Shown piece after piece: positions 1 to 14,814 of a DNA stretch of 15,124 nucleotides. The DNA lies in the UHGV virus genome UHGV-0073333; one strand, 5' to 3'. Source of the DNA: a virus. The translations under genes and the position numbers were made by a program. Position 1 is the first letter of the stretch. Each line of letters begins with the position of its first letter. Under the pieces are notes generated by a model. It ran no database searches, had not been told where the DNA came from, and saw nothing but the letters and a program-made list of their open reading frames with translations.

Positions 1-47
1 GGCGTTTCCGGTGGTAGCGTAACCTGCTATCTGAAGGAGGCTGCCAC

Positions 48-242: not shown

Positions 243-453
243 AACCTACGATGTGCATATGGATCCCCTCGAACGCACAAGCCAGATCATCACACTGACA
301 GAAGTGATTAACGACATTCTGGTGAGCAACTCTCCCTCACGAGACGAAAGACTGAAGGCGTTACTCGCGATATTGGATCTCGCCGTTCGTGACGTTCATT
401 TCCTGCTGGAAGGTGGCGAAATGCCAGGAAAAACGGGGGCAACCAATGAATAA
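235..453 (+). CDS. Hypothetical small protein (72 aa)
   Basis: ATG 235 with GGAGG at 224-228; in frame with ORF 145..453; start overlaps upstream stop. Confidence 0.5.
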   Translation: MIKTYDVHMDPLERTSQIITLTEVINDILVSNSPSRDERLKALLAILDLAVRDVHFLLEGGEMPGKTGATNE

Positions 454-640
454 CTCAATTAATGCCCCTCGACTTACGTCCGCACTTCAATTAATCGAGC
501 AAGCAGCGGCTGTCCTGGTTGCTGTCAGTCTTTCGGCTGAAGAAATGGACGCTGCTGATGTCGTGGATGCGATTAAAGCGTGCTCATCTTTGGTTAACGA
601 TGCTCGTGCAGAGCTGGTAATTCTTGGTGGTGAAAAATGA
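446..640 (+). CDS. Hypothetical small protein (64 aa)
   Basis: ATG 446 with GGGGG at 435-439; overlaps upstream stop at 451-453; in frame with ORF 389..640. Confidence 0.45.
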   Translation: MNNSINAPRLTSALQLIEQAAAVLVAVSLSAEEMDAADVVDAIKACSSLVNDARAELVILGGEK

Positions 641-900
641 ATATCAACTTAATTTATCGTCATCCGTGTGAGCTGGAAATTGAATCATTGCTGAGCCGTG
701 AAGAGCCATATCCAGACACATTCACTCTTGCAGATCGCACGACTGAACGGCTTACCAGAGCGCGCACAGGTCTGGTTCATGTGATGAATGAGATTCTTCC
801 ATCGGTGGGAGGGGAACAGGCGACAGTAATCACTAGCTGGCTACAAAAAGTTACCTCTCTGATAGATATCAGTTTAATCGATGCGGAGAGTGCGAAATGA
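637..900 (+). CDS. Hypothetical small protein (87 aa)
   Basis: ATGA start/stop overlap with the upstream gene at 637-640; ORF track. Confidence 0.5.
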   Translation: MNINLIYRHPCELEIESLLSREEPYPDTFTLADRTTERLTRARTGLVHVMNEILPSVGGEQATVITSWLQKVTSLIDISLIDAESAK

Positions 901-1118
901 CCAACATCCAGCTCATTGAAGCACAATGTCGCATCGAACAGGTTCAGACTGTTTTAGGGTTCTGGCTTGAAGGGGCCAGCCCCAGCAACAGAGACAAGTT
1001 AATGATTGGCGCGGTTATGTCACTGCTCAATGGCGTACCAGAAGCTATTCAGGAAGCAGACGAATTGTTGGGCAAATATGAGTTACAGAATCATTCAGGC
1101 GAGGCGAAACATGAATAA
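897..1118 (+). CDS. Hypothetical small protein (73 aa)
   Basis: ATGA overlap at 897-900; ORF track. Confidence 0.5.
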   Translation: MTNIQLIEAQCRIEQVQTVLGFWLEGASPSNRDKLMIGAVMSLLNGVPEAIQEADELLGKYELQNHSGEAKHE

Positions 1119-1713
1119 TTTCTTAACTTTCCATGCAGAAGCAACGCCTGACGGCGTAAACATCATGTACCGCAGCAACGATGGCATGACAGAACGCGTT
1201 GAGGCCGTCTCATATATTGATGCCGTAAATCGTCTGGATGCCGGGGATTATGACGATAAACCAGATGAAGGTATGTCAATACATCTCGCTATAGCCGATG
1301 GCGGCAACCAGGGATATTTCGATTACACATCACAGCATAACGTCATTATGTGGAGATGGCTGATCGCAACAGTATTCATGCTGGAAATGAGAGAGGAAAA
1401 CGGCACTGTCAGCATCATTGATGATACTGGCAATCCTTCCGAAGTGGCTGTTTATTCCAACGGCATCGTCGCCATGCCGCTGTATCCAGTAGCAGAGCGC
1501 CTCGCTATGGCAAACAACATTGAGGGCGCGATGATAGAACGTTTTGGCATCGAGTCTGGCACAGAACGCGCCATCATTTTCTACAGAGCCATGATGGATG
1601 TGGAACAAGGAGCACTGACTCCATTTGGTCGTGAAACGCTTGCTGAACTTCACAACAGCTTTATAGCTGAACTGAATGAAAACGGCATGCCAGCGGAACC
1701 AGTGACGCACTGA
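1111..1713 (+). CDS. Hypothetical protein (200 aa)
   Basis: ATG 1111 overlaps the stop of the upstream gene (coupled); in frame with ORF 1006..1713, whose longer N-terminal extension would overlap the previous gene and is not preferred. Confidence 0.55.
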   Translation: MNNFLTFHAEATPDGVNIMYRSNDGMTERVEAVSYIDAVNRLDAGDYDDKPDEGMSIHLAIADGGNQGYFDYTSQHNVIMWRWLIATVFMLEMREENGTVSIIDDTGNPSEVAVYSNGIVAMPLYPVAERLAMANNIEGAMIERFGIESGTERAIIFYRAMMDVEQGALTPFGRETLAELHNSFIAELNENGMPAEPVTH

Positions 1714-1723
1714 GGATGGAACC

Positions 1724-2065
1724 ATGATTACTAAAAATTTCCGACTGAATGCGCTGGCAAATAAGTATGCGTCGGCACTGTATAACCACATTACCTCCAC
1801 CAGCGGCGGGGACTATTTCATGGTTGATGCGGACGGCGAGGCCGTCCGTGTGGAAATCGTCAATGGAGTAAAAGGCGTTCGCAGCCTGATCGATAGCTAC
1901 ACACTGGCAGCCATGAAAGTGTTCTACCCGCAGTGGGAAACCGTGGGGATCGAGCTTCTTGATCGTTGCGTCACTAAGGACGGATTGACTGACGTCGGGC
2001 GTGAGATATGGCAAAGCATGGTTAATGACATGGGCGCAACTGTAGCGGGAGGTTCTCATGCGTGA
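1724..2065 (+). CDS. Hypothetical protein (113 aa)
   Basis: ATG 1724 with GAGGA at 1712-1716 (7-nt spacer); ORF track. Confidence 0.6.
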   Translation: MITKNFRLNALANKYASALYNHITSTSGGDYFMVDADGEAVRVEIVNGVKGVRSLIDSYTLAAMKVFYPQWETVGIELLDRCVTKDGLTDVGREIWQSMVNDMGATVAGGSHA

Positions 2066-2429
2066 AAATGCAGAAATGGCGCTTAGCTCCGCAATCGGAG
2101 AGCAGGTGGCAAAGATTGCTGGTGCTGTGTGGATTCATAACCTTCATTCTACTGGTGAAGAGAAAATGGCAATTCAGACGCCAGAGGGACGCACCATTAC
2201 TACATCTCTGAAGCCGTCAGATGTTTGTGATCTGATTTGCGCATTCATGTACCCAGCAATGAGGACTGCCCACGGCGATAAGTGGAAACTTGCGACAACC
2301 GCTGAATTTGATATGTGGCTAAACAATGATGGCATGCTGACTGATTACGGAATAACCAAGTGGCAGATGCTGGTTAGCCATATCGCAAACGCTATAGACC
2401 ACGTGGGGTACGGTGATGCGAAACATTGA
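2058..2429 (+). CDS. Hypothetical protein (123 aa)
   Basis: ATG 2058 with GGGAGG at 2047-2052; overlaps upstream stop 2063-2065; ORF track. Confidence 0.6.
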   Translation: MRENAEMALSSAIGEQVAKIAGAVWIHNLHSTGEEKMAIQTPEGRTITTSLKPSDVCDLICAFMYPAMRTAHGDKWKLATTAEFDMWLNNDGMLTDYGITKWQMLVSHIANAIDHVGYGDAKH

Positions 2430-5172
2430 TCTTATCCGTCAGGTTATCAGTGCGTCTGAAAACAACTGGCCTCATGTGCTGGGCTGCCTGAACATAAATG
2501 TCCCTGACTCTCCGCGCCGTCATGCTCCCTGCCCTGCATGTGGGGGCAAAGATCGATTCCGGTTCGATGACAACGGGCGCGGTAGCTTCATCTGTAATCA
2601 GTGCGGCGCTGGTGATGGGCTGGATTTAATTAAACGCGTAAATAACTGCGACACAACAGAGGCGGCGCTTCTTGCCGCTGATGTTCTGGGTATTGATTAC
2701 CGGACAACGGAAACACCAGAAGCCACCAGCCAGAAACGGGAACAACTGGAAACCGAGCGCCAGCGACGCGAACAGGAGCGCCTGAAAAGGGCAGAGAAGG
2801 ACGAACAACAAAGACGGGATACGTTTTCCCGTCAGTTTGATGACATGCGCAGAAAGGCTGTAAACGGCAAATCTGATTATCTGGTTGCGAAAGGGGTAGG
2901 TGATTTTACATTCCCCGTGTTGCCCGATGGATCTCTGTTGCTGGCGCTGGTGGATAAATCCGGCGCAGTAACAGCAGCACAGACTATTACCTCACATGGT
3001 GAAAAAAGACTCCTGACAGGTTCAGCAAAGCGGGGGGCATATCACGCCATAAACGCACCAGAAACAACACAGAGCATCTTAATCGCAGAAGGGCTGGCAA
3101 CGGCATTATCTGCCCATTTAATTCGTCCAGAGGCGCTGACAGTGGCGGCGATTGATGCCGGGAACCTGTTATATGTCGCCCAGGTACTGCGGGATAAATT
3201 TCCTTCAGCACAAATCATCATTGCTGCGGATAACGACCACAGCGAAGGAAGACAAAACACGGGGAGAATAGCAGCAGAAAAAGCAGCTTTATCTGTTTCT
3301 GGATGGGTGGCATTACCCCCGACAGATCACAAAGCAGACTGGAATGATTACCACCAAAAACACGGCATTAAATGCGCCACAGAAGCGTTCAATAAGTCAA
3401 TGTACCAACCACAGGGTAATGGCGTGAAACAGGAGCCACAGACCATTGAGGGAAGCGATTTTAAGGTTATGGATACCGACCCACTGAAACCAAGAATAGA
3501 AAGCCGCGAGGATGGTATTTATTGGGTATCTCCGAGAGCTGACAGCCAGAGTGGAGAAATCATCAATAACGAAAGCTGGTTATGTTCTCCGTTAAGCGTT
3601 ATCGGTACTGGCAGAGACGATAAAGACCAGTATCTCATTCTTCGCTGGCTGTCGTTTGGTTCTGAAACGCCGACAACCGCTGCCATTCCACTGGCTGATA
3701 TTGGTGAACGTGAAGGATGGCGCACACTTAAAGCTGGTGGGGTAAATGTCACGACCAAAAGCAGCCTCAGAGCAATACTGGCAGACTGGCTACAACGCAG
3801 TGGCTCTCGTGAATTGTGGCGTGTTGCTCATGCCACTGGCTGGCAATGCGGAGCGTACATCATGCCTGATGGGGAAATCATCGGAACACCTGAAAATCCT
3901 GTGCTGTTCAGCGGGAGAAGCTCAGCCGCAGCCGGATATACCGTCTTAGGGAGCGCGAAAAGCTGGCGTGATAACGTGGCGCGTCTGGCCTTTGGTAACT
4001 ATTCAATGATGACCGGGATCGGCGCAGCACTGGCAGCGCCATTGATTGGGCTGGTGGGCGCTGACGGGTTCGGCATTCATTTCTATGAGCAGTCGAGCGC
4101 AGGGAAGACCACCACGGCAAACGTGGCGAGCAGCTTATACGGCAACCCTGATTTACTGCGGCTGACGTGGTACGGAACCGCGCTGGGGCTGGCAAATGAG
4201 GCCGCCGCCCACAATGACGGACTAATGCCGCTTGATGAAGTTGGTCAGGGCGCTGATCCTGTCAGCGTTTCACAGTCTGCCTATGCGTTATTTAACGGTG
4301 TAGGGAAACTGCAAGGCGCTAAAGATGGTGGAAACCGGGATCTAAAACGTTGGCGTACAGTGGCAATCAGCACCGGAGAAATGGATTTAGAAACATTTAT
4401 CGCTACTTCCGGGCGAAAAACCAAAGCCGGGCAACTGGTGCGACTGCTGAATATTCCGTTGAGTAAAGCAGTACGCTTTCACGATTACCAGAACGGAAAA
4501 CAGCACGCAGACGCACTGAAAGACGCTTACCAGCATCACCACGGCGCGTCCGGGCGTGAGTGGATTAAATGGCTGGCAGACCACCAGCAACAGGCTATTA
4601 AAACCGTTCGTGATTGCGAAAGCAGATGGAGAAGCCTGATCCCATCCGATTATGGTGAGCAGGTTCACCGTGTAGCCGCGCGATTTGCCATTCTGGAGGC
4701 CGCATTGTTGTTAGGCGAGGTTGTAACAGGCTGGGATGCTCAGACATGCCGTGATGCGATACAGCACAGCTATAACGCATGGTTGCGCGAGTTCGGCACA
4801 GGTAACAAAGAGCATCAGCAGATTATTGAACAAACGGAGGCATTTCTTAATGCCTATGGGCTTAGCCGTTTTGCACCATTTCCATACAGCCCGGCAGATT
4901 TGCCCATCAAAGATTTAGCCGGATACCGTCAGCGTGGAGAACATGACGAAAGCCCAATGATTTTCTACACATTCCCGGCCACATTTGAAAAGGAGATCGC
5001 ATGTGGTTTCAACGCAAAACAGTTTGCTGAAGTGTTGAAAAAAGCCGGGATGCTAACCCCACCAAACAGCGGTCGTGGATACCAAAGAAAATCACCACGT
5101 ATTCAGGGACGACAAATAAACGTTTATGTACTCAATTACCAGCCAGGAGATTATAACTCATCTGAAGAATGA
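2416..5172 (+). CDS. Bifunctional primase-helicase replication initiator, P4 alpha-like (zinc ribbon + TOPRIM + P-loop NTPase)
   Basis: 918-aa ORF; CxxC...CxxC zinc ribbon (CPACGG...CNQCG); TOPRIM signatures (IAEG glutamate, AADND DxD); Walker A-like SSAGKTT; start ATG 2416 (GTG 2413 also possible) overlapping the upstream stop. Confidence 0.88.
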   Translation: MRNIDLIRQVISASENNWPHVLGCLNINVPDSPRRHAPCPACGGKDRFRFDDNGRGSFICNQCGAGDGLDLIKRVNNCDTTEAALLAADVLGIDYRTTETPEATSQKREQLETERQRREQERLKRAEKDEQQRRDTFSRQFDDMRRKAVNGKSDYLVAKGVGDFTFPVLPDGSLLLALVDKSGAVTAAQTITSHGEKRLLTGSAKRGAYHAINAPETTQSILIAEGLATALSAHLIRPEALTVAAIDAGNLLYVAQVLRDKFPSAQIIIAADNDHSEGRQNTGRIAAEKAALSVSGWVALPPTDHKADWNDYHQKHGIKCATEAFNKSMYQPQGNGVKQEPQTIEGSDFKVMDTDPLKPRIESREDGIYWVSPRADSQSGEIINNESWLCSPLSVIGTGRDDKDQYLILRWLSFGSETPTTAAIPLADIGEREGWRTLKAGGVNVTTKSSLRAILADWLQRSGSRELWRVAHATGWQCGAYIMPDGEIIGTPENPVLFSGRSSAAAGYTVLGSAKSWRDNVARLAFGNYSMMTGIGAALAAPLIGLVGADGFGIHFYEQSSAGKTTTANVASSLYGNPDLLRLTWYGTALGLANEAAAHNDGLMPLDEVGQGADPVSVSQSAYALFNGVGKLQGAKDGGNRDLKRWRTVAISTGEMDLETFIATSGRKTKAGQLVRLLNIPLSKAVRFHDYQNGKQHADALKDAYQHHHGASGREWIKWLADHQQQAIKTVRDCESRWRSLIPSDYGEQVHRVAARFAILEAALLLGEVVTGWDAQTCRDAIQHSYNAWLREFGTGNKEHQQIIEQTEAFLNAYGLSRFAPFPYSPADLPIKDLAGYRQRGEHDESPMIFYTFPATFEKEIACGFNAKQFAEVLKKAGMLTPPNSGRGYQRKSPRIQGRQINVYVLNYQPGDYNSSEE

Positions 5173-5194
5173 GCTTCTTCATGTGCGTAGAAAA

Positions 5195-5310
5195 GGTGTT
5201 GGTTCAGTTGGTTCAGTTGGTTCAATTTGTAAAGAGTATTGTTTTATAAGGATTTTATTCTTTTTATTGAACCAACACTGAACCAACAACACGGTATTTT
5301 GAACCAACAC
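5195..5310. repeat. Iteron cluster A: 3 tandem GTTGGTTCA 9-mers, AT-rich spacer, 3 inverted TGAACCAAC 9-mers; ori/crr-like
   Basis: Tandem 9-mers at 5198-5224; inverted copies at 5268-5276, 5279-5287, 5300-5308; 5195-5236 is a perfect 42-bp inverted copy of 13753-13794. Confidence 0.75.
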
Positions 5311-5358
5311 AATGTGACTGAATTGATGCGCACAACACCTGGCTGGCATCAGAGAGTG

Positions 5359-5434
5359 TTTTACGAGACTTTCGTAAAATCCTGTGTACAAGGGCGTGAC
5401 GTTTTTGAAAGTGAGCACTACGAAATTTTCGTAG
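5359..5434. promoter_or_regulatory. Two palindromic protein-binding-site candidates sharing a TTTCGTA half-site
   Basis: TTTTACGA-N5-TCGTAAAA at 5359-5379 and perfect 17-bp palindrome CTACGAAATTTTCGTAG at 5418-5434; same core recurs at 14253-14288. Confidence 0.35.
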
Positions 5435-5628
5435 TTCAAAAAACAGCCTCTGAGAAGTTGTTATGCCTGTTCAGCAAACCATCCGCATAGCTGATCGCGA
5501 ATCAAATTACCAATGGAGCCAGAAGCAAGGGCAGAACTGAAAAGCGCCTGCCGTGAAGAGTAATGCGACACCATAAATATAGTTTTTAGAGTCCATAAAA
5601 AACCTGTCAAAACCTGACACACAGAACG

Positions 5629-5662
5629 ATGCCACCAGCTACTGAGCGGTGGCATTTTTTTG
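5629..5662 (+). terminator. Rho-independent terminator closing the primase operon
   Basis: 8-bp stem ATGCCACC (5629-5636) / GGTGGCAT (5648-5655) followed by a T-run at 5656-5661. Confidence 0.7.
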
Positions 5663-5756
5663 TGCTATTTGTTTCATATTTTGCAATTACGATGATGAAT
5701 ATTGCGATTTGTGAAACTATAATAACTGTTGTTTTATACAGTTCTAAGGGGGCGTT

Positions 5757-5918
5757 ATGGCTATTTCAGTAAAGCAGGTATTGATAAGTGAGAAGCAAAT
5801 GGAAGCGATAAAGAAAATTCAGGAAGAGCAGCGTAAAAAATCAGGAATTGGAGTAGCGCCAACTCTGCATGAAATTGCACGAGGGTTAATAGATAAGGCG
5901 CTGGCAGGCTGTATGTGA
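5757..5918 (+). CDS. Small protein (53 aa), first gene of the plus-strand cargo operon; possibly a ribbon-helix-helix-like DNA-binding protein
   Basis: ATG 5757 preceded by AAGGGGG at 5746-5752; not in the ORF track (below cutoff), translated by hand: MAISVKQVLISEKQMEAIKKIQEEQRKKSGIGVAPTLHEIARGLIDKALAGCM. Confidence 0.5.
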   Translation: MAISVKQVLISEKQMEAIKKIQEEQRKKSGIGVAPTLHEIARGLIDKALAGCM

Positions 5919-5934
5919 AAATGGATGGCATCGC

Positions 5935-6396
5935 ATGGAACTAAAATTTATTGATAACCCTGTGCGATTACAGGCCTTTCTTAACGAGCCAGGCAATACC
6001 GAAAATATTGTTGAGCCGGGGCACACGTACTACATCAAGCCTGATGCGGTATATCTCGGCATCTACGAAGGATTAGTGCTGGCTGGCGTTCATGAAGTGC
6101 GTAACTTCTGGCATAGCGTTGTTGAATGCCATGCGGTGTACGACCCCGGATTCCGTGGTGAATATGCACTGCAAGGGCATCGATTATTCTGCAAATGGCT
6201 TCTCGAAAACTCACCATTCCTTAACAGCATTACCATGGTTCCTGACACCACCAAATACGGACGGGCAATTATCCGTTTGCTTGGCGCTACCCGTGTTGGT
6301 CACCTTGATGATGCTTATATCAGATGTGGTAAACCCGTCGGCGTAACGCTTTATCAGTTAACTCGGCAACAATATAAGGAATTCAGCGAATGTTAA
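5935..6396 (+). CDS. Hypothetical protein (153 aa); occupies the gp14 position of a P22-type ejection cassette
   Basis: ORF track; starts 16 nt after the upstream stop; its stop overlaps the next start (ATGTTAA). Confidence 0.7.
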   Translation: MELKFIDNPVRLQAFLNEPGNTENIVEPGHTYYIKPDAVYLGIYEGLVLAGVHEVRNFWHSVVECHAVYDPGFRGEYALQGHRLFCKWLLENSPFLNSITMVPDTTKYGRAIIRLLGATRVGHLDDAYIRCGKPVGVTLYQLTRQQYKEFSEC

Positions 6397-7043
6397 TTAC
6401 CCACATAGCTCATAAACATCTCAATCGTGCCGTATACGAAAAAGGCGGTGATGGTGGTGCCTCTAAAGCTCAGGCGAAGGCCCAGCAGCAGGCAATTGAT
6501 TTGCAGCGCGAGCAGTGGAATACGGTGATGAATAATCTCAAGCCGTATGCAGAAGTCGGATTGCCTGCTTTACAACAACTACAAGGACTGATGACTCTGG
6601 AAGGGCAGAATAAAGCCGCGAATGATTTCTTTGGTTCTGGTTTATATAAAACACAGGCAGATCAGGCCCGTTATCAGAACCTTGTCTCAGCAGAAGCTAC
6701 CGGGGGGCTTGGCTCAACAGCTACCAGTAACCAGTTATCTTCCATTGCGCCCATGCTTTATAACAATTGGCTTAGTGGGCAAATGCAAAATTATGGAAAC
6801 CTGCTAAATGTCGGGATGAATGCGGCATCAGGGCAGGCAACAGCAGGGCAACTCTTGCAGGGGCTTGGCGCTATTCGTGCAGGTCAGGCGCAGCAGCCAT
6901 CCAGTCTTGCGCGTGGTATTGGTGGGGCGGCATCAGGCGCTTTAGCGGGTGCGCAACTTGGTTCCGTTGTTCCGGGTATAGGTAATGTCGCCGGGGCTAT
7001 TGGTGGTGGGCTTATTGGTCTTGTTGGGGGGCTTGGATTCTAA
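6390..7043 (+). CDS. Gly/Gln-rich protein (217 aa) with a glycine-zipper hydrophobic C-terminus; ejection-protein-like (gp7-like by position and size)
   Basis: ORF track; C-terminal GGLIGLVGGLGF; TAATG overlap with the next gene. Confidence 0.7.
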   Translation: MLITHIAHKHLNRAVYEKGGDGGASKAQAKAQQQAIDLQREQWNTVMNNLKPYAEVGLPALQQLQGLMTLEGQNKAANDFFGSGLYKTQADQARYQNLVSAEATGGLGSTATSNQLSSIAPMLYNNWLSGQMQNYGNLLNVGMNAASGQATAGQLLQGLGAIRAGQAQQPSSLARGIGGAASGALAGAQLGSVVPGIGNVAGAIGGGLIGLVGGLGF

Positions 7044-8464
7044 TGGCGACATGGCAACTTGGCGGGCTGCCTAGCATGGCACCGCAAAATGATAATGCTC
7101 CTCGTTCTTCCGTTCCTCAGCCTGTGCAGTATCAGCAGCAGCCAAACGTAGGTTTAATGGCGCTACAGGGGCTAAGAGGCGTTGCTGAGATTAATCAGCA
7201 GGCACGTCAACAACAGCGTAAAGCAGAGTTTCAGAAAGCATATGCCGGGGCTTTTGAGTCTGGAGACAGAAACAAAATGCGCAGTCTTATTTCTGAGTAT
7301 CCAGAAGAATTTGAAAGCGTTCAGAAAGGGATGGGCTTTATTGATGACGACCAGAGAAATTCTATTGGTCATCTTGCGACTAGTGCTCAAATCGCATCTT
7401 CGCTCGGAACTGGGGCATTTGGAAAATTCATAGCAGATAACGAAGATGAAATGCGTCGCTTGGGAATTTCTCCTGAGTCTGTTGCCGAAATGCATGTTAA
7501 TGATCCACAGGGATTCCAGCGGCTTGCTGGTAGTATGGCACTGTTTTCTCTCGGTCATGAGAAGTATTTCGATATCAAAGATCAAATGGAAGGTCGGGAT
7601 ATTGAGCGTGGCAAGTTGGCAGAAACAATCCGCAGCAATCAGGCTGGCGAAGCACTTCAGGCGAGAGGGCAGGATATTAGCCGAGCAAATGCGTTAACGT
7701 CAGCATATGCACCAACAGCAGCAATGCAGAATTACAATCAGTACGCTCAAATGTTAAAGGCGGATCCAGAGGGGGCGGCGGCATTTGCGGCAGCGGCTGG
7801 AATTAATACAAACGCCAAAAAATTAATGAGTGTTAGAGAAAACGATGATGGCACTGTCACAAAATACTACACAGACGGAAGTGAAGAGCAGGGAAAACTA
7901 AACCAGCCAATATCTGGAGATGGGTTTCGTCCAATAGCTTTGCCAACAGCCCAAAAGATCATGGAAAAGTCGCCAGAAGGGGCTAAAAAAGCTGCTGGAT
8001 TTGCATACAGGGTTAGGGATGCTCTTGATTCAATAGATACACTGAAAGACCAGCTTAGCCCACAGCGAGTGGCGATCATTAATAATGCTTTGGGTAATGG
8101 GACGCTGGCTAACTTAACGCTCAGCCCAATAGAGCAGCAATACGTTGTTAATGCTAATGACGCAATAATGGCAATACTCCGTCAGGAAACAGGGGCATCT
8201 ATCCTACCAGCTGAAATGTCCAAATATTATCAAATGTATTTCCCTCAGCCTGGTGATTCCACAAAAACCATTGATACCAAGCGCCGGAAGATGGAAAACC
8301 AGTTCAATTCGCTGAAAGCTGCTTCTGGTCGAGCTTATGATGCTTTGCGGGTTATTTCAGCAGTTGACAGAGGAACTTCTTCTTCGTCGCAGACATTGCC
8401 GCAATCTGAGCAGGTATCACAGCCAGCAGCCAGCAGTAATTTTTCTTCACTATGGGGTGATTAA
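7043..8464 (+). CDS. Low-complexity Gln/Ala-rich protein (473 aa); ejection/internal virion protein-like (gp20-like by position and size)
   Basis: ORF track; translationally coupled on both sides; no enzymatic motifs seen. Confidence 0.78.
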   Translation: MATWQLGGLPSMAPQNDNAPRSSVPQPVQYQQQPNVGLMALQGLRGVAEINQQARQQQRKAEFQKAYAGAFESGDRNKMRSLISEYPEEFESVQKGMGFIDDDQRNSIGHLATSAQIASSLGTGAFGKFIADNEDEMRRLGISPESVAEMHVNDPQGFQRLAGSMALFSLGHEKYFDIKDQMEGRDIERGKLAETIRSNQAGEALQARGQDISRANALTSAYAPTAAMQNYNQYAQMLKADPEGAAAFAAAAGINTNAKKLMSVRENDDGTVTKYYTDGSEEQGKLNQPISGDGFRPIALPTAQKIMEKSPEGAKKAAGFAYRVRDALDSIDTLKDQLSPQRVAIINNALGNGTLANLTLSPIEQQYVVNANDAIMAILRQETGASILPAEMSKYYQMYFPQPGDSTKTIDTKRRKMENQFNSLKAASGRAYDALRVISAVDRGTSSSSQTLPQSEQVSQPAASSNFSSLWGD

Positions 8465-10143
8465 TGGCTAAAGCATGGAAAGATGTTATCGCTTCTCCAC
8501 AGTATCAGGCGTTAGCACCAGAACAAAAAGCGCAGGCTCAAGAGCAATACTTCAATGAAGTCGTGGCCCCGCAAGCCGGAGAAAGTGTAGAGCAGGCTAA
8601 GCAGGCTTTTTATGCTGCCTATCCACTACCATCAACGAATGAAATAGACCGATCCCAATCAGCAACTCAAAATATTCAACATACATCATCTGATAATTCT
8701 CTTGCGTCAGGGTATGCAAAGTTAGCTACTCAGCAAAGAGAGGGGCTTGAGCGTTCAGCAGAACAGGGAGCCAGTCTTGGGGCTGCGATGCGCGATGCTA
8801 TAACAGGCGAAAGCCGAATGACTCCAGAGATGGAGAGACTGCAAAATGTCGCCTCTGCCCCAGAATTGAACTCACTAAGCATGGATGCCCTAAAGGCTGG
8901 ATGGTCTCAACTTTTCGGCTCTGACGCGTCTCAGGAAAAGATTCTTCAGGGAATGGGGGCGACATTAAGGCAGGATGAGAAGGGGAATACTATCGTTTCT
9001 CTGCCATCAGGTGATTATGCCCTGAACAAGCCGGGTTTATCACCGCAAGACCTGACTTCGTTTCTTGCTAATGCGTTGGCGTTTACACCAGCGGGCAGGG
9101 CTGGAACGGTGCTTGGTGCCATAGGAAAATCAGCAGCTACAGATTTAGCACTACAGGGAGCCACCAGCCTTGCTGGTGGAGAAGATATTGATCCGTTACA
9201 AACGGTAATTTCTGCTGGCATTGGTGGTATTGGTAAGGGGCTGGAAAATACAGCGAGTGCGGTTTCGAGGGCTGTTCGTGGTGATATGTCGCCTGAAGCA
9301 AAGGCTGCTGTCGACTTTGCATCGGAAAGAAATCTGCCGTTAATGACCAGTGACATGCTGAAAGATAAAACCTTTATGCAGAGTCAGGCTCAGACATTAG
9401 GCGAAAGAGTTCCTTTTTTTGGAACCGGTAAGAATCGGCTGAATCAACAACAAGCACGAGAAAATTTAGTCAGAACATTTAGCGATGGTCTGGGTGGCAT
9501 TTCTGATAAACAGCTTTATGAATCTGCGACTAAAGGGCAACAAAAATTCATTGAGGCAGCAGGAAAGCGATATAACCGCATAATTGACGCTATGGGGGAT
9601 ACCCCTGTCGATCTCTCAAACACGGTAAAAGCTATCGACAATCAGATTGCCGTGTTAAGCCGCCCGGGCAAATCTCAGGATAGAGCCGCGGTAAAAGTCT
9701 TGCAGCAATTTAAAGACGATATCACCAGCGGACCAAATGACCTGCGTCTGGCGAGGGAAAACAGAACCGATCTTCGAAAGCGATTTATGGCGTCATCTGA
9801 CACTGTTGATAAAGATACGCTCCAGAAAGCCAGCGATATTATCTACAAGGCATATACGGCGGATATGAAAAAAGCCGTAGCCAAAAATCTTGGAGCAGAC
9901 GAAGCCATTAATATGGCAAGGGTTGATCGCTCATGGTCTAAATTCAATGACATGATGGGAAGAACGCGCGTTCAAAAGGCAATAGCCAGCGGCAAGGCCA
10001 CGCCTGAGGATGTAACAAAACTCGTTTTTAGCCAAAGCCCATCAGAACGTTCTCAGCTTTACAGGCTTCTGGGTGACAATGGTAGGGAAAAAGCACCAGC
10101 AGCCATAGCTGCTGCGTTAGGCAAAACGCACGAGCGGCCATAG
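8464..10143 (+). CDS. Low-complexity Ala/Gln-rich protein (559 aa); ejection/internal virion protein-like (gp16-like by position)
   Basis: ORF track; ATG 8464 overlaps upstream stop (TAATG), GGGGTG Shine-Dalgarno-like sequence at 8451-8456. Confidence 0.78.
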   Translation: MAKAWKDVIASPQYQALAPEQKAQAQEQYFNEVVAPQAGESVEQAKQAFYAAYPLPSTNEIDRSQSATQNIQHTSSDNSLASGYAKLATQQREGLERSAEQGASLGAAMRDAITGESRMTPEMERLQNVASAPELNSLSMDALKAGWSQLFGSDASQEKILQGMGATLRQDEKGNTIVSLPSGDYALNKPGLSPQDLTSFLANALAFTPAGRAGTVLGAIGKSAATDLALQGATSLAGGEDIDPLQTVISAGIGGIGKGLENTASAVSRAVRGDMSPEAKAAVDFASERNLPLMTSDMLKDKTFMQSQAQTLGERVPFFGTGKNRLNQQQARENLVRTFSDGLGGISDKQLYESATKGQQKFIEAAGKRYNRIIDAMGDTPVDLSNTVKAIDNQIAVLSRPGKSQDRAAVKVLQQFKDDITSGPNDLRLARENRTDLRKRFMASSDTVDKDTLQKASDIIYKAYTADMKKAVAKNLGADEAINMARVDRSWSKFNDMMGRTRVQKAIASGKATPEDVTKLVFSQSPSERSQLYRLLGDNGREKAPAAIAAALGKTHERP

Positions 10144-10604
10144 TTCAGAATGCTGTAGATAAGGCGACTGATCCGTCTGGAAATATCAGTGTTGAGAAGT
10201 TTATTAATGCGTTACACCGGAACAGGAAGCAATCAGCAACTTTCTTTAAAGGCGTACATGGAAAGGAACTGGACGGCGTTATTAAATACCTCAACGATAC
10301 AAGACACGCGGCAAAAGCGAACGTTCAAAACTTAAATGGTCAGCAGCTTTATGGATTGTTAGTTGGTGGTGGCATCATAAACGCAGCAGTATTAGCGGGG
10401 ATGCTAAAAACGGCTGCGTTTGTTGTTCCTGCTGCTGGTGCCGTAGGCGGAGCAGCGAAGGCATACGAAAGCCCTGTTATACGAAATGCCTTGTTACGTC
10501 TGGCAAATACGCCAAAAGGTAGCACAGCATATGACAGAGCGATCAGTACGGTCACACAATCGCTCACCAGAGTCGCACAGGCATCACAAAAAGAAGCTCA
10601 ATAA
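10086..10604 (+). other. Open frame of 172 codons with no canonical start, overlapping the 3' end of the 559-aa gene; probable frameshifted C-terminal extension or frameshift-disrupted gene
   Basis: Stop-free from 10086 to TAA 10602-10604; first ATG/GTG/TTG only at 10356; operon terminator sits after 10604, not after 10143; encodes a Gly/Ala-rich hydrophobic segment. Confidence 0.45.
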
Positions 10605-10606
10605 CT

Positions 10607-10631
10607 GGTTAGCCACGGATGGCTAATTTTT
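10607..10631 (+). terminator. Rho-independent terminator of the plus-strand cargo operon
   Basis: Stem TTAGCCA (10609-10615) / TGGCTAA (10620-10626), loop CGGA, then TTTTT at 10627-10631. Confidence 0.55.
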
Positions 10632-11042
10632 GTTCTTTGCTCTCATCCACAGGTAAAGAAGGGCAAGAACAAGACAAAAAACAGAGAATAGATAACCTAC
10701 CTCATATGATGCGCCAAAAAAATTAGCTATTGATACGGGCAAAAAAGCTGAAGCGATCAAAATTGAAAGGCAAAAAATAAGACCAGTAATATAGTTTATT
10801 AAATTCTTAAATGAGAAACGTTTTGCTTGATTTATGGTCTTAGCGAACGATCGCTTAACGACGGATAAAAGCAAATAGATGGCGACAGTTGCTAATGCCC
10901 CTTTCCACCAGTCTGGATATAGTTTTGCGACAATCAGACCAAGGAAAACCATGATGACAGCCTGAGCATTCACACCAACCCTCCCTTTAGCGTTGTTTAG
11001 ATTGGCAATCATCATATATCCAAGACATGGCATTTGGTACAT
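10623..11042 (-). CDS. Small inner-membrane protein (about 139 aa, about 4 hydrophobic helices); start uncertain
   Basis: ORF track 10623..11210 begins at a TTG; first ATG is at 11042; strongly hydrophobic; AT-rich; no clear Shine-Dalgarno sequence. Confidence 0.5.
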   Translation of the reverse strand: MYQMPCLGYMMIANLNNAKGRVGVNAQAVIMVFLGLIVAKLYPDWWKGALATVAIYLLLSVVKRSFAKTINQAKRFSFKNLINYITGLIFCLSILIASAFLPVSIANFFGASYEVGYLFSVFCLVLALLYLWMRAKNKN

Positions 11043-11165
11043 AGCTTGGGTCGGGATTTCAAATCCGCCCCCGTTGATGGGGTCGTTACAGTACGCGCAT
11101 ATCCGCTTTATGTGAAACAGGAAGATTTTTCTGATATCACTGCCACAGCAAAACACCAATTTCGA

Positions 11166-11181
11166 GACAAGTACGCGCGCG
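11166..11181. repeat. 16-bp direct repeat GACAAGTACGCGCGCG, copy 1
   Basis: Exact copy at 11452-11467; partial third copy ACAGTACGCGCA at 11088-11099. Confidence 0.6.
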
Positions 11182-11451
11182 AGGGGTATCAGTTGCAAAA
11201 AATTTTGCAACTACGTCCGACCAATACACACACGATGGCGGGGGATACCATAAAACTGTTCTCTACATGAGACAGAGTGGTGGTGATGTGTTGATTATCG
11301 GCCTATATGCGCACAGGACGCGCTATGACAATGTTTTATGCGGGTACACCAATCACATGTATCTGGTGTGATAAATCGCGTTACATGACCTTTCATGTTG
11401 TGCTGGTGGTTATCACGACGTTCTGAATCTGGCTTTTGTCTGATATTTTGC

Positions 11452-11467
11452 GACAAGTACGCGCGCG
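11452..11467. repeat. 16-bp direct repeat GACAAGTACGCGCGCG, copy 2
   Basis: Exact match to 11166-11181, 286 bp apart, in a non-coding region. Confidence 0.6.
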
Positions 11468-11804
11468 TAACATCGAAATTATCGGATGGCGTATGTTGCT
11501 GGCAAGATAAAGTCGGCGTAATACAAAGGCGTTACTTGATAGCAGCAAGATTACAACAATGGTTGTTGAATTTGAGCGATGTAAGGAATTGATTTAGGGA
11601 GGCGCTGATGGCTAAAAAGTTCCACTACCAGCGGATGAATGCGCCAGCGATGGCCGTTTGGTAGTAAAAGAGGAGCCATTCCTCAATCAGTTGAATACAT
11701 TATGCCAACTAAATGGGTGGGGGCACTGTGTGGGTATTCAGCGGTGACGGTATTTTTTAAGCCAAGGACTATCCGTAGCAGGGGGACTCATTTTGAAATA
11801 TTTA

Positions 11805-12242
11805 TCATATGTAACTTATTATTTTAGATAAAGATTTCCAGTTAAAGAAAAAAGTTATCATTGATATAATCAAATATGCCCCTGCGAGTAGCAGGGCATA
11901 ATAATCCAGAGGCAGATTGCTGACAACAGGGGCAAACATCGAGATCATTGCTAATAGGCAGGCTGTGATCAGCGTAGTTCCTGTATCAAAAAGCCCCTCA
12001 ATAATGCCTTTTAGTACTCCGTTACTTTTTAGAGCGCCTACAATTCCCTTTGAACTATCAAAGCTACTTAGCATGGTGACTGATGCCAAAACAAAACCAA
12101 AGAGAACTCCAGAAATAGTTGAAAGAGCACCAGCAGCCGAAATGACAGCATTGTGATCTAGGTCGTGTAAAAAATGGGCACCAGCAATAGCCATAGCTAG
12201 AGCAAACAATGACTTGGCAGCAAACAATTTCCGAGAACTCAT
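11805..12242 (-). CDS. Small membrane protein (145 aa, 3-4 hydrophobic helices); second gene of the two-gene cargo operon
   Basis: ORF track; ATG with AGGA 7 nt upstream, 12 nt after the stop of the 361-aa gene; AT-rich. Confidence 0.75.
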   Translation of the reverse strand: MSSRKLFAAKSLFALAMAIAGAHFLHDLDHNAVISAAGALSTISGVLFGFVLASVTMLSSFDSSKGIVGALKSNGVLKGIIEGLFDTGTTLITACLLAMISMFAPVVSNLPLDYYALLLAGAYLIISMITFFFNWKSLSKIISYI

Positions 12243-12254
12243 AATGTATTCCTG

Positions 12255-13340
12255 TTACGTTTGACTAACCAAATAGTACTGGGTTAGATACCTAAGGTTG
12301 TCATTCTTTGCTTGTAGCATAGCATTTTTAACGTCAGTATCGGTCGGATACCCATCTGCTTGGATAGGCACCATCTTCTTTACCGTAAGAACTTCGTCTA
12401 CAAGACTTTTCTTCTTTTTATCGCCCTGAGCAACAACATTTGCTTTCTCAAAAGTTAAACGACCATCACCACCAGGGAACTTTTCTAGCATCTCCTTAAG
12501 GCTTTTTTTAACGTCATCCTCAAGCCATCCCTTTGCTTTTCTTTTTAATGGAGAATGTCCGCGTAACGAAATAGTCAGGTGGCTTGAACTGGTGCCTCTG
12601 ATCATCTCAATCATCTGATTCGCGAACATTCCATCGAGTTGATACTGTGCGGCATTGAAGTTTCTTGGGATGGCCACAGAAATCTCGCAGCTTCTTAGAT
12701 TGGATCCAGTTTCGAGTAGTTCTTTGATGCTTTCTTCTTTCCAAATGGCTTCAAAAGAAACAGGGACTCCGCGATCACTGGAGTTGAAAAGAAGGAAGGC
12801 TAAGTCACTATGGCGTGGACCTAAATGATTTAAAGACAATACTAGAATGTCTGTCTGAGGATAATAAATAAAGTATGTACGTTCTGAAAGAGTCTTTGCC
12901 CCGGCTAGAGGGATTTTCTCTTCCACCCACTCTTTATCTGTAATATATGCCAGTGTTGCGCTTTTTCTTCTTCGAGACATGAATCCGAAGTAGGAGCCAT
13001 CCTCGGGTGAGATGTCTAGAAAATGAATTTTAAGTTCTCTTTCACCAAAGTCTGCATAGTGGGTCATCTTGAAGTCTTTAGAACACCGATCATACAGATT
13101 TTTAAAGGCCTCTGCGGTTAACCCCTTGTTACTAGTGCGAATATTCTCAGAGCTTGTGTAAAAGCCCACCCTTACAGATTTCAAACTTTGATCTTTTGGT
13201 GCCACAGTCATTTGAGCTCCATTGTACTCTGCGATAGTTTTTGCACACCTTGAAATCAAAATCTCCATGTCAGTCACGAGAAAATAACTATGGATGAAAC
13301 CCATCAAAGGCATTGAATACAGGTGGCTTTTGAGAATCAT
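12255..13340 (-). CDS. Hypothetical soluble protein (361 aa), no recognisable catalytic motif; first gene of the two-gene cargo operon
   Basis: ORF track; about 40% GC by eye and AGA/AGG arginine codons suggest horizontal acquisition. Confidence 0.8.
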   Translation of the reverse strand: MILKSHLYSMPLMGFIHSYFLVTDMEILISRCAKTIAEYNGAQMTVAPKDQSLKSVRVGFYTSSENIRTSNKGLTAEAFKNLYDRCSKDFKMTHYADFGERELKIHFLDISPEDGSYFGFMSRRRKSATLAYITDKEWVEEKIPLAGAKTLSERTYFIYYPQTDILVLSLNHLGPRHSDLAFLLFNSSDRGVPVSFEAIWKEESIKELLETGSNLRSCEISVAIPRNFNAAQYQLDGMFANQMIEMIRGTSSSHLTISLRGHSPLKRKAKGWLEDDVKKSLKEMLEKFPGGDGRLTFEKANVVAQGDKKKKSLVDEVLTVKKMVPIQADGYPTDTDVKNAMLQAKNDNLRYLTQYYLVSQT

Positions 13341-13689
13341 CCTAACCTGGTGACGGTGGTTCGCATATCCTGATGGATGATCAGTGATTAATCAATGCGC
13401 CAAGCAGATGTGTCTATGTGTTTGTTAATCATTGCATGACAGTAGATCGACATGGGAGATCACGTTATATAGTTGAATTGTTAGGATATCCATGCACCGA
13501 TCAACTGACTAGGCTGATGTGCTTTTTAGCAGGTGCCATATAGTAGTTAGGCGGTTCTGTGAAATGATTACTGTTCCAGCATAACTGCGGCATAAAGCGG
13601 TGCTATATAAGCTATTTGCTGGCGGATTTAGTCTTCACCGTTCATATATGTAGTGACTATTTGACAGAGTGTTAGTTCACGGACACTTT

Positions 13690-13795
13690 TTGTTGGTTCA
13701 AAATGAGTTGATGTTGGTTCAATATTTTAGAAAAAACACAATAAAAACAACGCTCTTTACAAATTGAACCAACTGAACCAACTGAACCAACACCT
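13690..13795. repeat. Iteron cluster B (inverted copy of cluster A); ori/crr-like
   Basis: GTTGGTTCA at 13692-13700 and 13713-13721; three tandem TGAACCAAC at 13765-13791; 13753-13794 is the exact reverse complement of 5195-5236. Confidence 0.75.
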
Positions 13796-13827
13796 TTTTG
13801 CTTATCTATATAATCTGAGAGGCAGAA

Positions 13828-14115
13828 ATGATAAGGGACAGGAAAGCTGAAGAGCTGGAGTCAAAAGGGCTATACCGGAGAGCTGCCGCACGATGGGCAG
13901 AAGTCATGATGCTGGCAAATGGCGATAAAGAACGTGAACATGCAGCAAACAGGCGCTCTGAATGTATCCGTAAGGCGGCACGCCCACCAGCAACTACAGA
14001 CAGATTCGGAGATTTAAGACAGGCAGTTAAGCGAACTCATTCGGCTCTTGGTATGGATGAGGAAGCGAGAGGGTACTTCAGGCGTTATCGCGATAAAGAT
14101 TGCCAGAGACAGTAA
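13828..14115 (+). CDS. Small basic protein (95 aa), PerC-like transcriptional regulator (family assignment tentative)
   Basis: ATG 13828 with GAGAGG at 13817-13822; TATAAT at 13809-13814; N-terminal pattern AEELESKGLYRRAAARW recalls the PerC/Pch family. Confidence 0.6.
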   Translation: MIRDRKAEELESKGLYRRAAARWAEVMMLANGDKEREHAANRRSECIRKAARPPATTDRFGDLRQAVKRTHSALGMDEEARGYFRRYRDKDCQRQ

Positions 14116-14170
14116 TGCTCTCTCTGTTTTGGCAAATTACCCTTCACTTTGAAGGGAGCGGAGCTATAAA

Positions 14171-14413
14171 AATGGTTTTAGGTACATTCCTCAAATTGAG
14201 GTTTCCGAAAATATCAGCGGGTTAGCGATTAATCTGGCGAGTAATTAAACTGCGAAAATTTCGTAGGGGGTTACGAAAATTTCGTAGGTCTACTCATGGT
14301 TTAGGCTTACTTTCCCGACATCCCCCAATGGGGGGGTCGAAATAATCAATGGGTTAGGCTTACCTCCCCCCATTTCCTGCATTGCAGGTTTTCGAAAGAA
14401 TCAATGGGTTAGG
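14171..14413. repeat. Four direct copies of ATGG(G)TT(T)AGG in the integrase-upstream region; candidate arm-type or operator sites
   Basis: Copies at 14171-14185, 14295-14310, 14344-14358, 14399-14413; the last two are an identical 15-mer AATCAATGGGTTAGG 55 bp apart. Confidence 0.5.
14253..14288. promoter_or_regulatory. Tandem palindromic operator-like sites CGAAAATTTCGTAGG x2, 21-bp period
   Basis: Exact 15-mers at 14253-14267 and 14274-14288; same core as the palindrome at 5418-5434. Confidence 0.4.
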
Positions 14414-14814
14414 TCATCGTGCAAATTTGCACTCTGCCAGCCAACGCAATTTCTCGTTGGCGGAAATATCAGGTATTTACTGAACGAACGGTCTACCCGC
14501 CTGTTCAACTACCAGTTGTACATGGCTGCTTTATGTGCAAATGGTGGTGAGAGAAAATTGTTTGGGGGTACTTTTGGGGGTATCTCCAAAGATGTAATGG
14601 GGAAATGTCTTTATATATCAATGTATTTTTATTGTTTGTTTTGTTCCTATTATCGCACCATTCTAACGTCTCCCCAAGTCTACTCAAGTATTTAAAAACC
14701 TCTTATAATCAGTATATTAATGCCCCTTTTAGTCTTTTGACGTCTATTTAAGTACCCCAAACTCTACAAGCAATTGAGGGGATTTGCTGTTCAGTTTAGT
14801 GGAGATACCCCCAA

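What the first reader, a model, noticed from the sequence alone, without database searches (positions are those of the whole stretch)
10623..11042. Convergent AT-rich membrane protein after the ejection-like cassette, in the position of a superinfection-exclusion gene
A protein of about 139 aa with about four hydrophobic helices is encoded convergently, its stop codon lying inside the plus-operon terminator hairpin. In P22 the ejection genes are followed by sieA, a small inner-membrane protein that blocks DNA entry of superinfecting phage; this is an analogy by position only. Its translation start is unclear (no Shine-Dalgarno sequence; the palindrome GGATTTCAAATCC lies over the expected ribosome-binding region), suggesting regulated translation.
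Basis: inference. Interest (0 to 1): 0.5.

Follow-up and report, generated by a model that had tools for sequence, protein, structure and literature searches.

The report
Unnamed membrane gene in sieA slot
A real, conserved gene for a small four-helix membrane protein sits exactly where phage P22 keeps its superinfection-exclusion gene sieA, but it is unrelated in sequence to SieA, so it is a good untested candidate for a new blocker of phage DNA entry.

Summary
It runs 10623-10973 on the minus strand and encodes 116 aa. It starts at a GTG six bases after a strong Shine-Dalgarno sequence (GGAGG). The start column, SD and reading frame are conserved in all 30 copies examined (17 distinct coding sequences) from eight enterobacterial species, and dN/dS is 0.12-0.43. 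The claims of "no SD" and a palindrome over the ribosome-binding site are wrong.

The protein is AT-rich and has four predicted helices. Its TAG stop lies in the 3' arm of the conserved hairpin that ends gene 16. In every context seen, the gene is convergent with a P22 gp16-type ejection gene, 17-24 nt away. P22 sieA and E. coli HS1 sieA occupy the same position and orientation, and this family and SieA never co-occur in the loci held.

There is no detectable homology to SieA types A or B (hhalign probability 0.2%; no PF26849 or phrog_7745 match; signature motif absent), nor to any Pfam, PHROG, PADLOC, NCBIfam or PDB entry.

Here the gene lies in an EcCIMP1-like phage satellite (PICI) that carries a P22-type ejection-gene module, not in a prophage.

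[quoted passage not shown] Function and expression are untested.

The parts
10623..10973 (-). Coding sequence of the 116-aa four-helix membrane protein (GTG start at 10973-10971, TAG stop at 10625-10623). It belongs to an uncharacterised family restricted to Enterobacterales.
   Evidence: Start. Purifying selection. Helices. Family size and taxa.
10980..10984 (-). Shine-Dalgarno sequence GGAGG (within AAGGGAGG), 6 nt upstream of the GTG start.
   Evidence: Sequence read. Conserved in the closer homologues, with GAGG or GTGAG in the most distant ones.
10607..10628 (.). Hairpin shared by the converging genes. On the plus strand it is followed by a T-run and ends the ejection-gene operon. The membrane gene's stop codon lies in its 3' arm.
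   Evidence: Conserved in all family loci with compensatory changes (G-C to A-T in L009, A-T to T-A in L030) and near-identical to the P22 gene 16 terminator stem.
8464..10604 (+). Gene 16-type ejection (DNA transfer) protein gene. In this window it is broken by a 35-nt imperfect duplication near 10086-10120, giving a 559-aa N-terminal part plus an out-of-frame C-terminal part at 10356-10604. It is intact (701 aa) in ABU 83972.
7204..11047 (.). Swappable module: most of gp20, gp16, the hairpin, the membrane gene and 74 nt upstream of it. The characterised satellite EcCIMP1 of strain MP1 has, in its place, another gp20/gp16 pair plus a co-directional 232-aa lipoprotein.
   Evidence: blastn of window against MP1. 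MP1 annotation and HMM scan.
5935..8464 (+). gp14 (DUF2824, 5935-6396), gp7 (6390-7043) and gp20 (7043-8464) homologues. These are the rest of the P22-type ejection module.
11054..11066 (.). It is not part of the gene. It lies just outside the module boundary, in the 5' part of a divergent frameshifted ORF.

Best explanation
The gene encodes a small inner-membrane protein of 116 aa with four transmembrane helices. Both termini and the basic middle loop are predicted to be cytoplasmic. The invariant KLYP(D)WW turn is predicted at the periplasmic face.

It behaves as a 'moron'. It is AT-rich, lies on the opposite strand, has its own ribosome-binding site and ends in the late-operon terminator. 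It would be made in the lysogen or satellite-bearing cell.

I propose that it acts like P22 SieA. From the inner membrane it would interfere with the gp20/gp16 conduit that P22-like virions build, so that superinfecting P22-like phage DNA does not reach the cytoplasm.

Shown: the gene, its start and stop, purifying selection, predicted helices, strict linkage to gene 16, occupancy of the sieA slot, and absence of SieA from the same loci.

Inferred: membrane location and topology, expression in the lysogen, and the exclusion activity with its target.
For: 1. The position and orientation match functionally proven sieA genes: P22 and HS1 type B (function shown in PMC10883804).
2. In every context examined the gene is convergent with a gp16 gene, 17-24 nt away. 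This holds from 99% down to 35% protein identity, in complete P22-like prophages and in satellites.
3. HMM scans found no SieA within about 8-10 kb of any family member, and no family member in the P22 or HS1 loci. The same host species carry SieA A or B in other strains (Yersinia, Serratia, E. coli, Salmonella). The two therefore look like alternative cassettes in one gene pool.
4. The terminator hairpin at the junction is homologous between P22 and this family's loci, which indicates a cassette replacement at a fixed boundary.
5. Four predicted helices. The K/R distribution fits a cytoplasmic-in topology across the family.
6. Purifying selection, a strong conserved SD, and low GC.
7. The ORF is intact here although the neighbouring gp16 is frameshifted.
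8. A related satellite, EcCIMP1, adds to superinfection immunity against its P22-like helper by an unknown mechanism (PMC11773190). Satellites of this type therefore do carry anti-P22-like functions.
Against: - There is no sequence or profile similarity to SieA A or B: BLASTP E > 1 and hhalign probability 0.2%.
- There is no match to phrog_7745, although that model detects type B SieA at 6.5e-21. There is no PF26849 match.
- The conserved SieA motif FxRYPxEAxxFNK and the roughly 50-residue cytoplasmic loop are absent.
- No convincing sigma-70 promoter was found directly upstream, here or in other contexts, so expression is not shown.
- MP1's EcCIMP1, the only related element with a phenotype, lacks this gene, so that phenotype cannot be credited to it. 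In that study the satellite did not protect non-lysogens.
- The slot also holds unrelated genes of unknown function, such as the 106-aa single-helix protein of phage N7. Position alone therefore does not fix function.
- The structure model has low confidence (pLDDT 66).
Confidence: 0.45

Rival explanations
1. It is a membrane moron with another role. Examples are exclusion of, or abortive response to, phages other than P22-like ones, or a change in host envelope physiology. On this view it sits next to gene 16 only because the end of the late operon is a tolerated insertion site.
For: - The slot holds diverse unrelated genes: the N7 106-aa protein, the MP1 lipoprotein, and ClpP/DUF805/peptidase genes upstream in L004.
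- There is no homology to any exclusion family.
- Nearby cargo genes at 11805-13340 also occur in lambdoid phages.
Against: - The gene is never found away from a gp16 gene, even at 35% identity and in two different kinds of element.
- Only 7 cluster representatives exist among 1.84 billion proteins, and the ones whose contigs could be read were all in this context.
- A general moron would be expected to appear in other phage types, yet none of 50,697 phage records has it.
Confidence: 0.25
2. It works with the linked gp16 in the element's own life cycle. It might protect the producing cell membrane from the membrane-active ejection proteins. Or it might discriminate between entry by virions carrying the cognate gp16 type and entry by other types.
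For: - All members are linked to one gp16 sequence type (62-99% identity), while the gp20 and gp7 types vary.
- The module is exchanged as a unit between satellites.
- The gp16 proteins of four of the five family loci aligned (the Edwardsiella gp16 is the exception) carry an extra hydrophobic stretch in the C-terminal segment where P22 SieA-escape mutations map (PMC10883804).
Against: - Convergent transcription, with a terminator between the genes, argues against co-expression with the late operon.
- Tight linkage is expected from adjacency alone.
- A related gp16 type (67% identity) occurs in phage N7 without this gene.
- P22 SieA excludes P22 itself, so no cognate-sparing precedent exists.
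Confidence: 0.12
3. It is a very distant SieA homologue whose similarity has decayed below detection. It would then be a 'type D' SieA rather than an independent invention.
For: - The slot, orientation and terminator are the same.
- SieA types A, B and C are themselves only about 25% identical.
- Types B and C are reported to have one more predicted helix than the three of type A, which would give four.
Against: - hhalign probability is 0.2% against a profile of types A and B.
- Length and domain layout differ: 116 aa against 164-212 aa in the type A and B proteins read here.
- The only well conserved SieA motif is absent.
Confidence: 0.1
4. It is an unexpressed or decaying ORF with no current function in this strain.
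For: - No clear promoter.
- The neighbouring gp16 is broken here.
- Truncated and frameshifted variants exist in some genomes.
Against: - dN/dS is 0.12-0.43.
- The SD and start are conserved over deep divergence.
- The ORF is intact here, and window 10300-11400, which contains it, is 100% identical to ABU 83972.
- Each of two exact protein variants was seen on at least 1000 contigs.
Confidence: 0.05

Closest known systems
SieA of phage P22 and P22-like prophages (types A, B, C; Pfam PF26849, phrog_7745)
   Same: - Encoded immediately after gene 16 on the opposite strand, about 20 nt from its stop, at the late-operon terminator.
- A small polytopic membrane protein.
- Found only in P22-type gene neighbourhoods of Enterobacterales.
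- The two are mutually exclusive in the loci examined.
   Different: - No detectable sequence or profile similarity.
- 116 aa against 164-212 aa.
- Four closely spaced helices without SieA's long cytoplasmic loop.
- Lacks FxRYPxEAxxFNK. Its own conserved motif (LIVAKLYPDWW) is predicted at the periplasmic side, whereas SieA's motif is cytoplasmic.
- Function untested.
EcCIMP1, a phage-inducible chromosomal island of E. coli MP1 mobilised by the P22-like phage Kapi1 (Pick, Stadel and Raivio 2025, PMC11773190). This is the genomic context, not the gene.
   Same: - The window's element shares the backbone at 98.9% identity over 7.2 kb.
- It uses the same thrW site in ABU 83972.
- It has the same att core TCCTATTATC at 14645-14654.
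- It carries a primase, PerC and the gp14/gp7 genes.
   Different: MP1's element has a different gp20/gp16 pair and a lipoprotein gene in place of window 7204-11047, and it lacks this membrane gene.
Other small inner-membrane DNA-entry blockers and four-helix phage membrane proteins: T4 Imm, HK97 gp15, lambda RexB and GtrA. These are named from my own knowledge of the field.
   Same: Small size, membrane location and expression from a resident element. RexB and GtrA also have four helices and about 120-145 aa.
   Different: No family of any kind reached significance for this protein in Pfam, PHROGs, PADLOC or NCBIfam. I did not check which of these named proteins has a model in those libraries. 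They also occupy different genomic settings.

Membership tests
SieA (P22 superinfection exclusion protein A; PF26849, phrog_7745) | Sequence or profile similarity to SieA types A, B or C | tested here: not met
   - BLASTP E > 1 against P22 and HS1 SieA.
- hhalign probability 0.2% against type A and A+B profiles.
- No phrog_7745 hit at E <= 0.1, although that model finds type B at 6.5e-21.
- Precomputed PF26849 is present on all but one truncated SieA hit and absent from all family members.
SieA (P22 superinfection exclusion protein A; PF26849, phrog_7745) | Conserved C-terminal motif FxRYPxEAxxFNK (PMC10883804) | tested here: not met
   The motif is present in P22 and HS1 SieA. It is absent from all ten aligned family members.
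SieA (P22 superinfection exclusion protein A; PF26849, phrog_7745) | Located between genes 16 and 9 of a P22-like element, next to gene 16 on the opposite strand | tested here: met
   In complete prophages a tailspike head-binding domain gene lies further on (L003, L004, L023, L026-L029).
SieA (P22 superinfection exclusion protein A; PF26849, phrog_7745) | Integral inner-membrane protein with 3-4 transmembrane helices | tested here: inconclusive
   Four helices are predicted, and the charge distribution fits an in-in topology. This is prediction only, the model confidence is low, and localisation was not measured.
SieA (P22 superinfection exclusion protein A; PF26849, phrog_7745) | Blocks DNA injection by P22-like phages, with escape mutations in gp16 and gp20 | not testable with these tools
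   This needs plating, K+ efflux and escape-mutant experiments.
Moron (an independently expressed extra gene in a phage late region; concept of Hendrix and colleagues, from my own knowledge) | Distinct base composition, own terminator, orientation independent of the operon, and own promoter | tested here: inconclusive
   Composition, orientation and terminator criteria are met. No convincing promoter was found.
EcCIMP1-like PICI (the element that contains the gene) | Integrase at tRNA-Thr (thrW), AlpA-type regulator, primase, PerC, flanking att core TCCTATTATC, and no capsid or lysis genes | tested here: met
   - The window is 99.7-99.9% identical to the element annotated in ABU 83972, which supplies the left-end features (integrase, regulator, tRNA-Thr) that lie outside the window.
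- 98.9% identity to the MP1 EcCIMP1 backbone.
- att core at 14645-14654.
- No coat, portal, terminase or tailspike hits.
- Helper-dependent mobilisation was not tested.

The most novel reading that the evidence does not exclude
The gene founds a fourth class of gp16-linked DNA-entry blockers that arose independently of SieA. It travels with one gp16 type as a module, in both P22-like prophages and their satellites. The blocker and the linked gp16 would form a matched pair: the satellite or prophage shuts the membrane gate to virions carrying foreign ejection proteins while sparing or favouring its own. That would explain why satellites of P22-like phages carry ejection genes at all.
Probability: 0.1. 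Interest if true: 0.7.

Novelty: new variant of a known kind. Interest (0 to 1): 0.42.

Why it matters
SieA is the only understood example of a resident protein that jams the ejection-protein conduit of short-tailed P22-like phages. How it recognises very divergent gp16 and gp20 proteins remains an open question (PMC10883804). A second, unrelated protein in the same slot would give an independent handle on that conduit.

The gene is common in extraintestinal pathogenic E. coli. It matched 599 of 5426 complete genomes, and each of two exact protein variants was seen on at least 1000 contigs. It also lies on a satellite family whose anti-helper superinfection immunity has no known mechanism (PMC11773190).

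In practical terms, it is a candidate determinant of resistance to P22-like phages and of transduction barriers. Current defence finders do not recognise it.

Tried and rejected
Searches that found nothing useful:
- Pfam, PHROGs, PADLOC and NCBIfam on the ORF, including every family member at E <= 1, gave only hydrophobic-composition noise such as MgtC, DUF2070 and FlhB.
- A PDB profile search gave nothing.
- Foldseek against viral structures had a best E of 0.26, and the model confidence was low.
- Megablast, distant blastn and tblastn against 50,697 phage records gave no hit to the gene or its upstream DNA.
- A scan of one genome per species found no relative.
- Simple promoter scans in four contexts found nothing convincing upstream. 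A 10/12 match on the minus strand at 11505-11478 lies about 500 nt upstream and was left uninterpreted.

Ideas rejected:
- No known family matched, so membership of GtrA, RexB, Imm, holin or small multidrug-resistance families has no support. I did not check which of these have models in the libraries.
- The palindrome as a translational operator was rejected on position, lack of conservation and chance frequency.
- Crediting EcCIMP1's published superinfection immunity to this gene was rejected, because MP1's element lacks it.

Errors corrected along the way:
- My first reading of the gp16 defect as a 35-nt deletion was wrong. It is a 35-nt insertion, an imperfect duplication.
- A first alignment to MP1 used the wrong strand and was replaced by blastn.

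Full report
**What is in the sequence**

The window is 99.7-99.9% identical to a chromosomal island of E. coli ABU 83972. On the plus strand it carries four P22-type genes:
- gp14 (DUF2824), 5935-6396
- gp7, 6390-7043
- gp20, 7043-8464
- gp16, 8464-10604

Identifications are from Pfam and PHROGs. In this window gp16 is frameshifted by a 35-nt imperfect duplication near 10086-10120. It is intact at 701 aa in ABU 83972.

A stop-to-stop ORF on the minus strand runs from 11210 to 10623.

**The true gene**

GTG 10973 is the start, for these reasons:
- GTG 10973 is preceded by AAGGGAGG with a 6-nt spacer.
- In a DNA alignment with E. coli, Edwardsiella and Yersinia homologues, similarity begins abruptly at GGAGG-N6-GTG. 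Everything upstream is unalignable. ATG 10952 is ATA in one homologue.
- In 29 of the 30 copies found (17 distinct coding sequences), a script located a start codon at the same column. It is GTG in the close members and ATG in the distant ones, after GGAGG, GAGG or GTGAG. The script missed L020, but its printed translation carries VNAQ at that column.
- The distant proteins (35-38% identity) begin MN.Q at that column.

The product is therefore 116 aa (10623-10973).

The palindrome GGATTTCAAATCC is at 11054-11066. It lies 81-93 nt upstream of the start and outside the conserved module. Seven such palindromes occur in the window against 3.7 +/- 1.8 in shuffles.

**Is it a real gene?**

Yes.
- Pairwise dN/dS is 0.12-0.43 where dS is not saturated.
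- The exhaustive profile search found only 7 cluster representatives among 1.84 billion proteins.
- Named members come from E. coli, E. albertii, Salmonella enterica, Citrobacter freundii, Edwardsiella tarda, Yersinia enterocolitica, Serratia fonticola and Pluralibacter gergoviae. All are annotated as hypothetical.
- The 1.1-kb region matches 599 of 5426 complete E. coli genomes.
- Each of two exact protein variants was seen on at least 1000 contigs.
- No isolated phage genome carries it.

**The protein**

- GC content is 37.6%, against 48% for the ejection genes.
- AlphaFold2 with the family alignment predicts four helices: 3-18, 23-47, 54-85 and 90-115. Confidence is low (pLDDT 66, pTM 0.43).
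- Across the family, the loop between helices 2 and 3 carries 3-6 K/R and the C-terminus 1-3. The other two loops carry 0-2.
- By the positive-inside rule (established knowledge), this fits N-in, C-in with four spans.
- That topology puts the most conserved stretch, L-x-L-I-V-A-K-L-Y-P-D-W-W, at the periplasmic turn.
- No Pfam, PHROG, PADLOC, NCBIfam or PDB family matches, and Foldseek against viral models gave nothing.

**The hairpin**

The TAG stop (10625-10623) lies in the 3' arm of GGTTAGCCA-CGGA-TGGCTAATT (10607-10628). The hairpin is followed by a T-run on the plus strand, 18 nt after the gp16-frame stop.

The stem is kept in all family loci. There are two compensatory changes: G-C to A-T in L009 and A-T to T-A in L030. 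The stem GCC-AAGGAC-GGC of the Yersinia locus is nearly identical to the one after P22 gene 16. It is thus the conserved late-operon terminator, and the converging gene ends in it.

**Context elsewhere**

Wherever the contig allowed a reading, the gene is convergent with a gp16 gene, with 17-24 nt between the two called genes. Two settings occur:
- Complete P22-like prophages with coat, gp10, needle, ejection genes and a tailspike beyond (L003-L007, L019, L023, L025-L029).
- Elements with a TOPRIM/DUF927 primase, gp14-gp7-gp20-gp16 and often PerC, but no capsid genes (the window, L002, L015, L016, L018, L021, L030, L031). The last two have only 37-38% identity in the membrane protein.

The gp16 is always of one sequence type (62-99% identity), whereas the gp20 and gp7 types vary.

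**Comparison with sieA**

P22 sieA (164 aa) is on the opposite strand, 22 nt after gene 16. The functionally tested type B sieA of prophage HS1 (212 aa) is 21 nt after gene 16 (PMC10883804).

HMM scans of all loci found no SieA near any family member, and no family member near SieA. Yet the same species carry SieA A or B in other strains.

Homology is absent:
- BLASTP E > 1.
- hhalign probability 0.2% against type A and A+B profiles.
- No phrog_7745 hit, although that model finds type B at 6.5e-21.
- No PF26849 match.
- The FxRYPxEAxxFNK motif and the long cytoplasmic loop are missing.

The gene is therefore not a SieA family member by any sequence test available. It does occupy the sieA slot as an alternative cassette.

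The slot also takes other genes. Phage N7, whose gp16 is 67% identical, has a 106-aa single-helix protein there.

**The element in this window**

It is an EcCIMP1-like phage-inducible chromosomal island.
- In ABU 83972 it starts with an integrase next to tRNA-Thr (thrW).
- It shares 98.9% identity over 7.2 kb with EcCIMP1 of strain MP1.
- It ends at the published att core TCCTATTATC, here at 14645-14654 (PMC11773190).

EcCIMP1 is mobilised by the P22-like phage Kapi1. It adds to superinfection immunity of Kapi1 lysogens by an unknown mechanism, and PADLOC and DefenseFinder find no defence system in it.

However, MP1's copy lacks this gene. Window 7204-11047 is replaced there by another gp20, a 906-aa gp16 with a transglycosylase domain, and a co-directional 232-aa lipoprotein. 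The published phenotype therefore cannot be assigned to this gene.

What the comparison does show is that [gp20 part - gp16 - terminator - membrane gene - 74 nt] moves as one module.

**Mechanism proposed**

Shown:
- A conserved, selected gene for a small hydrophobic four-helix protein.
- Its own ribosome-binding site.
- Termination in the late-operon hairpin.
- Obligate linkage to gp16.
- Mutual exclusivity with SieA in the loci held.

Inferred: it is made in cells carrying the prophage or satellite, sits in the inner membrane, and interferes with the gp20/gp16 conduit of incoming P22-like virions, as SieA does. I put this at about 0.45.

Weak points:
- No promoter was identified.
- There is no homology to any exclusion protein.
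- No experiment has been done.
- Other unrelated genes use the same slot.

Rivals:
- Another kind of membrane moron (0.25).
- A role tied to its own gp16 (0.12). It rests on the gp16-type linkage and on an extra hydrophobic stretch, present in four of the five family-linked gp16 proteins aligned, in the segment where P22 SieA-escape mutations map.
- A SieA homologue diverged beyond detection (0.10).
- A silent ORF (0.05).

**Verdict**

It is an uncharacterised family and a plausible non-homologous counterpart of SieA. It is of moderate interest and directly testable.

Noticed in passing
window 1-14654 (att core at 14645-14654); ABU 83972 locus L033/L001; MP1 locus L034: The whole region is an EcCIMP1-like phage satellite (PICI) integrated at thrW. 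It carries a P22-type gp14-gp7-gp20-gp16 module but no capsid, portal, terminase or tailspike genes. The same layout recurs in Edwardsiella (L002) and in far-diverged elements (L030, L031). The published description calls these genes only 'DNA transfer/DUF2824-like' and suggests a packaging role. Why a satellite carries its own ejection proteins is not explained.
   Followed up: partly
window 7204-11047 against L034 11731-16556: Between this element and MP1's EcCIMP1 the backbone is 95-99% identical. The segment from inside gp20 to 74 nt upstream of the membrane gene has no nucleotide similarity. MP1 instead has a 906-aa gp16 with an N-terminal lytic transglycosylase domain and a co-directional 232-aa lipoprotein (lipobox LLAGC). 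That lipoprotein is itself a candidate for MP1's unexplained superinfection immunity.
   Followed up: partly
window about 10086-10120: A 35-nt imperfect tandem duplication (24 of 35 matches) frameshifts gp16 in this window. The gene is intact (701 aa) in ABU 83972 and in other loci.
   Followed up: yes
window 11805-12242 and 12255-13340, minus strand: This is a two-gene cargo: a 145-aa membrane protein (phrog_8552) and a 318-361-aa protein (phrog_7651). There is no Pfam, PADLOC or NCBIfam match. It is present in L016 but absent from MP1, L015 and L017. Homologues of the larger protein (42-44% identity) occur in lambdoid phages such as cdtI. It may be an unrecognised defence pair.
   Followed up: partly
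window 11034-11372, plus strand: A divergent ORF here is split by a frameshift. The intact 126-aa version is in L017 (9601-9981). It has no Pfam match.
   Followed up: partly
window 10623-11012 (RefSeq WP_042025458.1): RefSeq annotates the gene from ATG 11012 (129 aa). Other gene callers give 130, 116 or 109 aa for the same family. The conserved start gives 116 aa.
   Followed up: yes
gp16 C-terminus, window 10356-10604; alignment: The gp16 proteins next to this family in four of the five loci aligned (not Edwardsiella) carry an extra stretch (Q/K)LYGLL-x-GGG. It lies in the Gly/Ala-rich hydrophobic C-terminal segment where P22 SieA-escape mutations G532W and P546S map. G532 is conserved in all types. 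The P546 position is K or N in four of these five, and P in Edwardsiella.
   Followed up: partly
L032 (phage N7) 5902-6222, minus strand: Phage N7 has the closest gp16 among isolated phages (67.6% identity). In the same convergent slot it has a different 106-aa protein with one N-terminal hydrophobic helix (phrog_10450, unknown function).
   Followed up: no
window 11505-11478, minus strand: This is the best sigma-70-like match in the region (TTGCCA-16-GATAAT, 10 of 12). It points toward the membrane gene from about 500 nt upstream, in backbone DNA shared with MP1. Its significance is unknown.
   Followed up: no
window about 14654-14669: There is a 16-nt insertion relative to ABU 83972 immediately after the att core repeat.
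   Followed up: no
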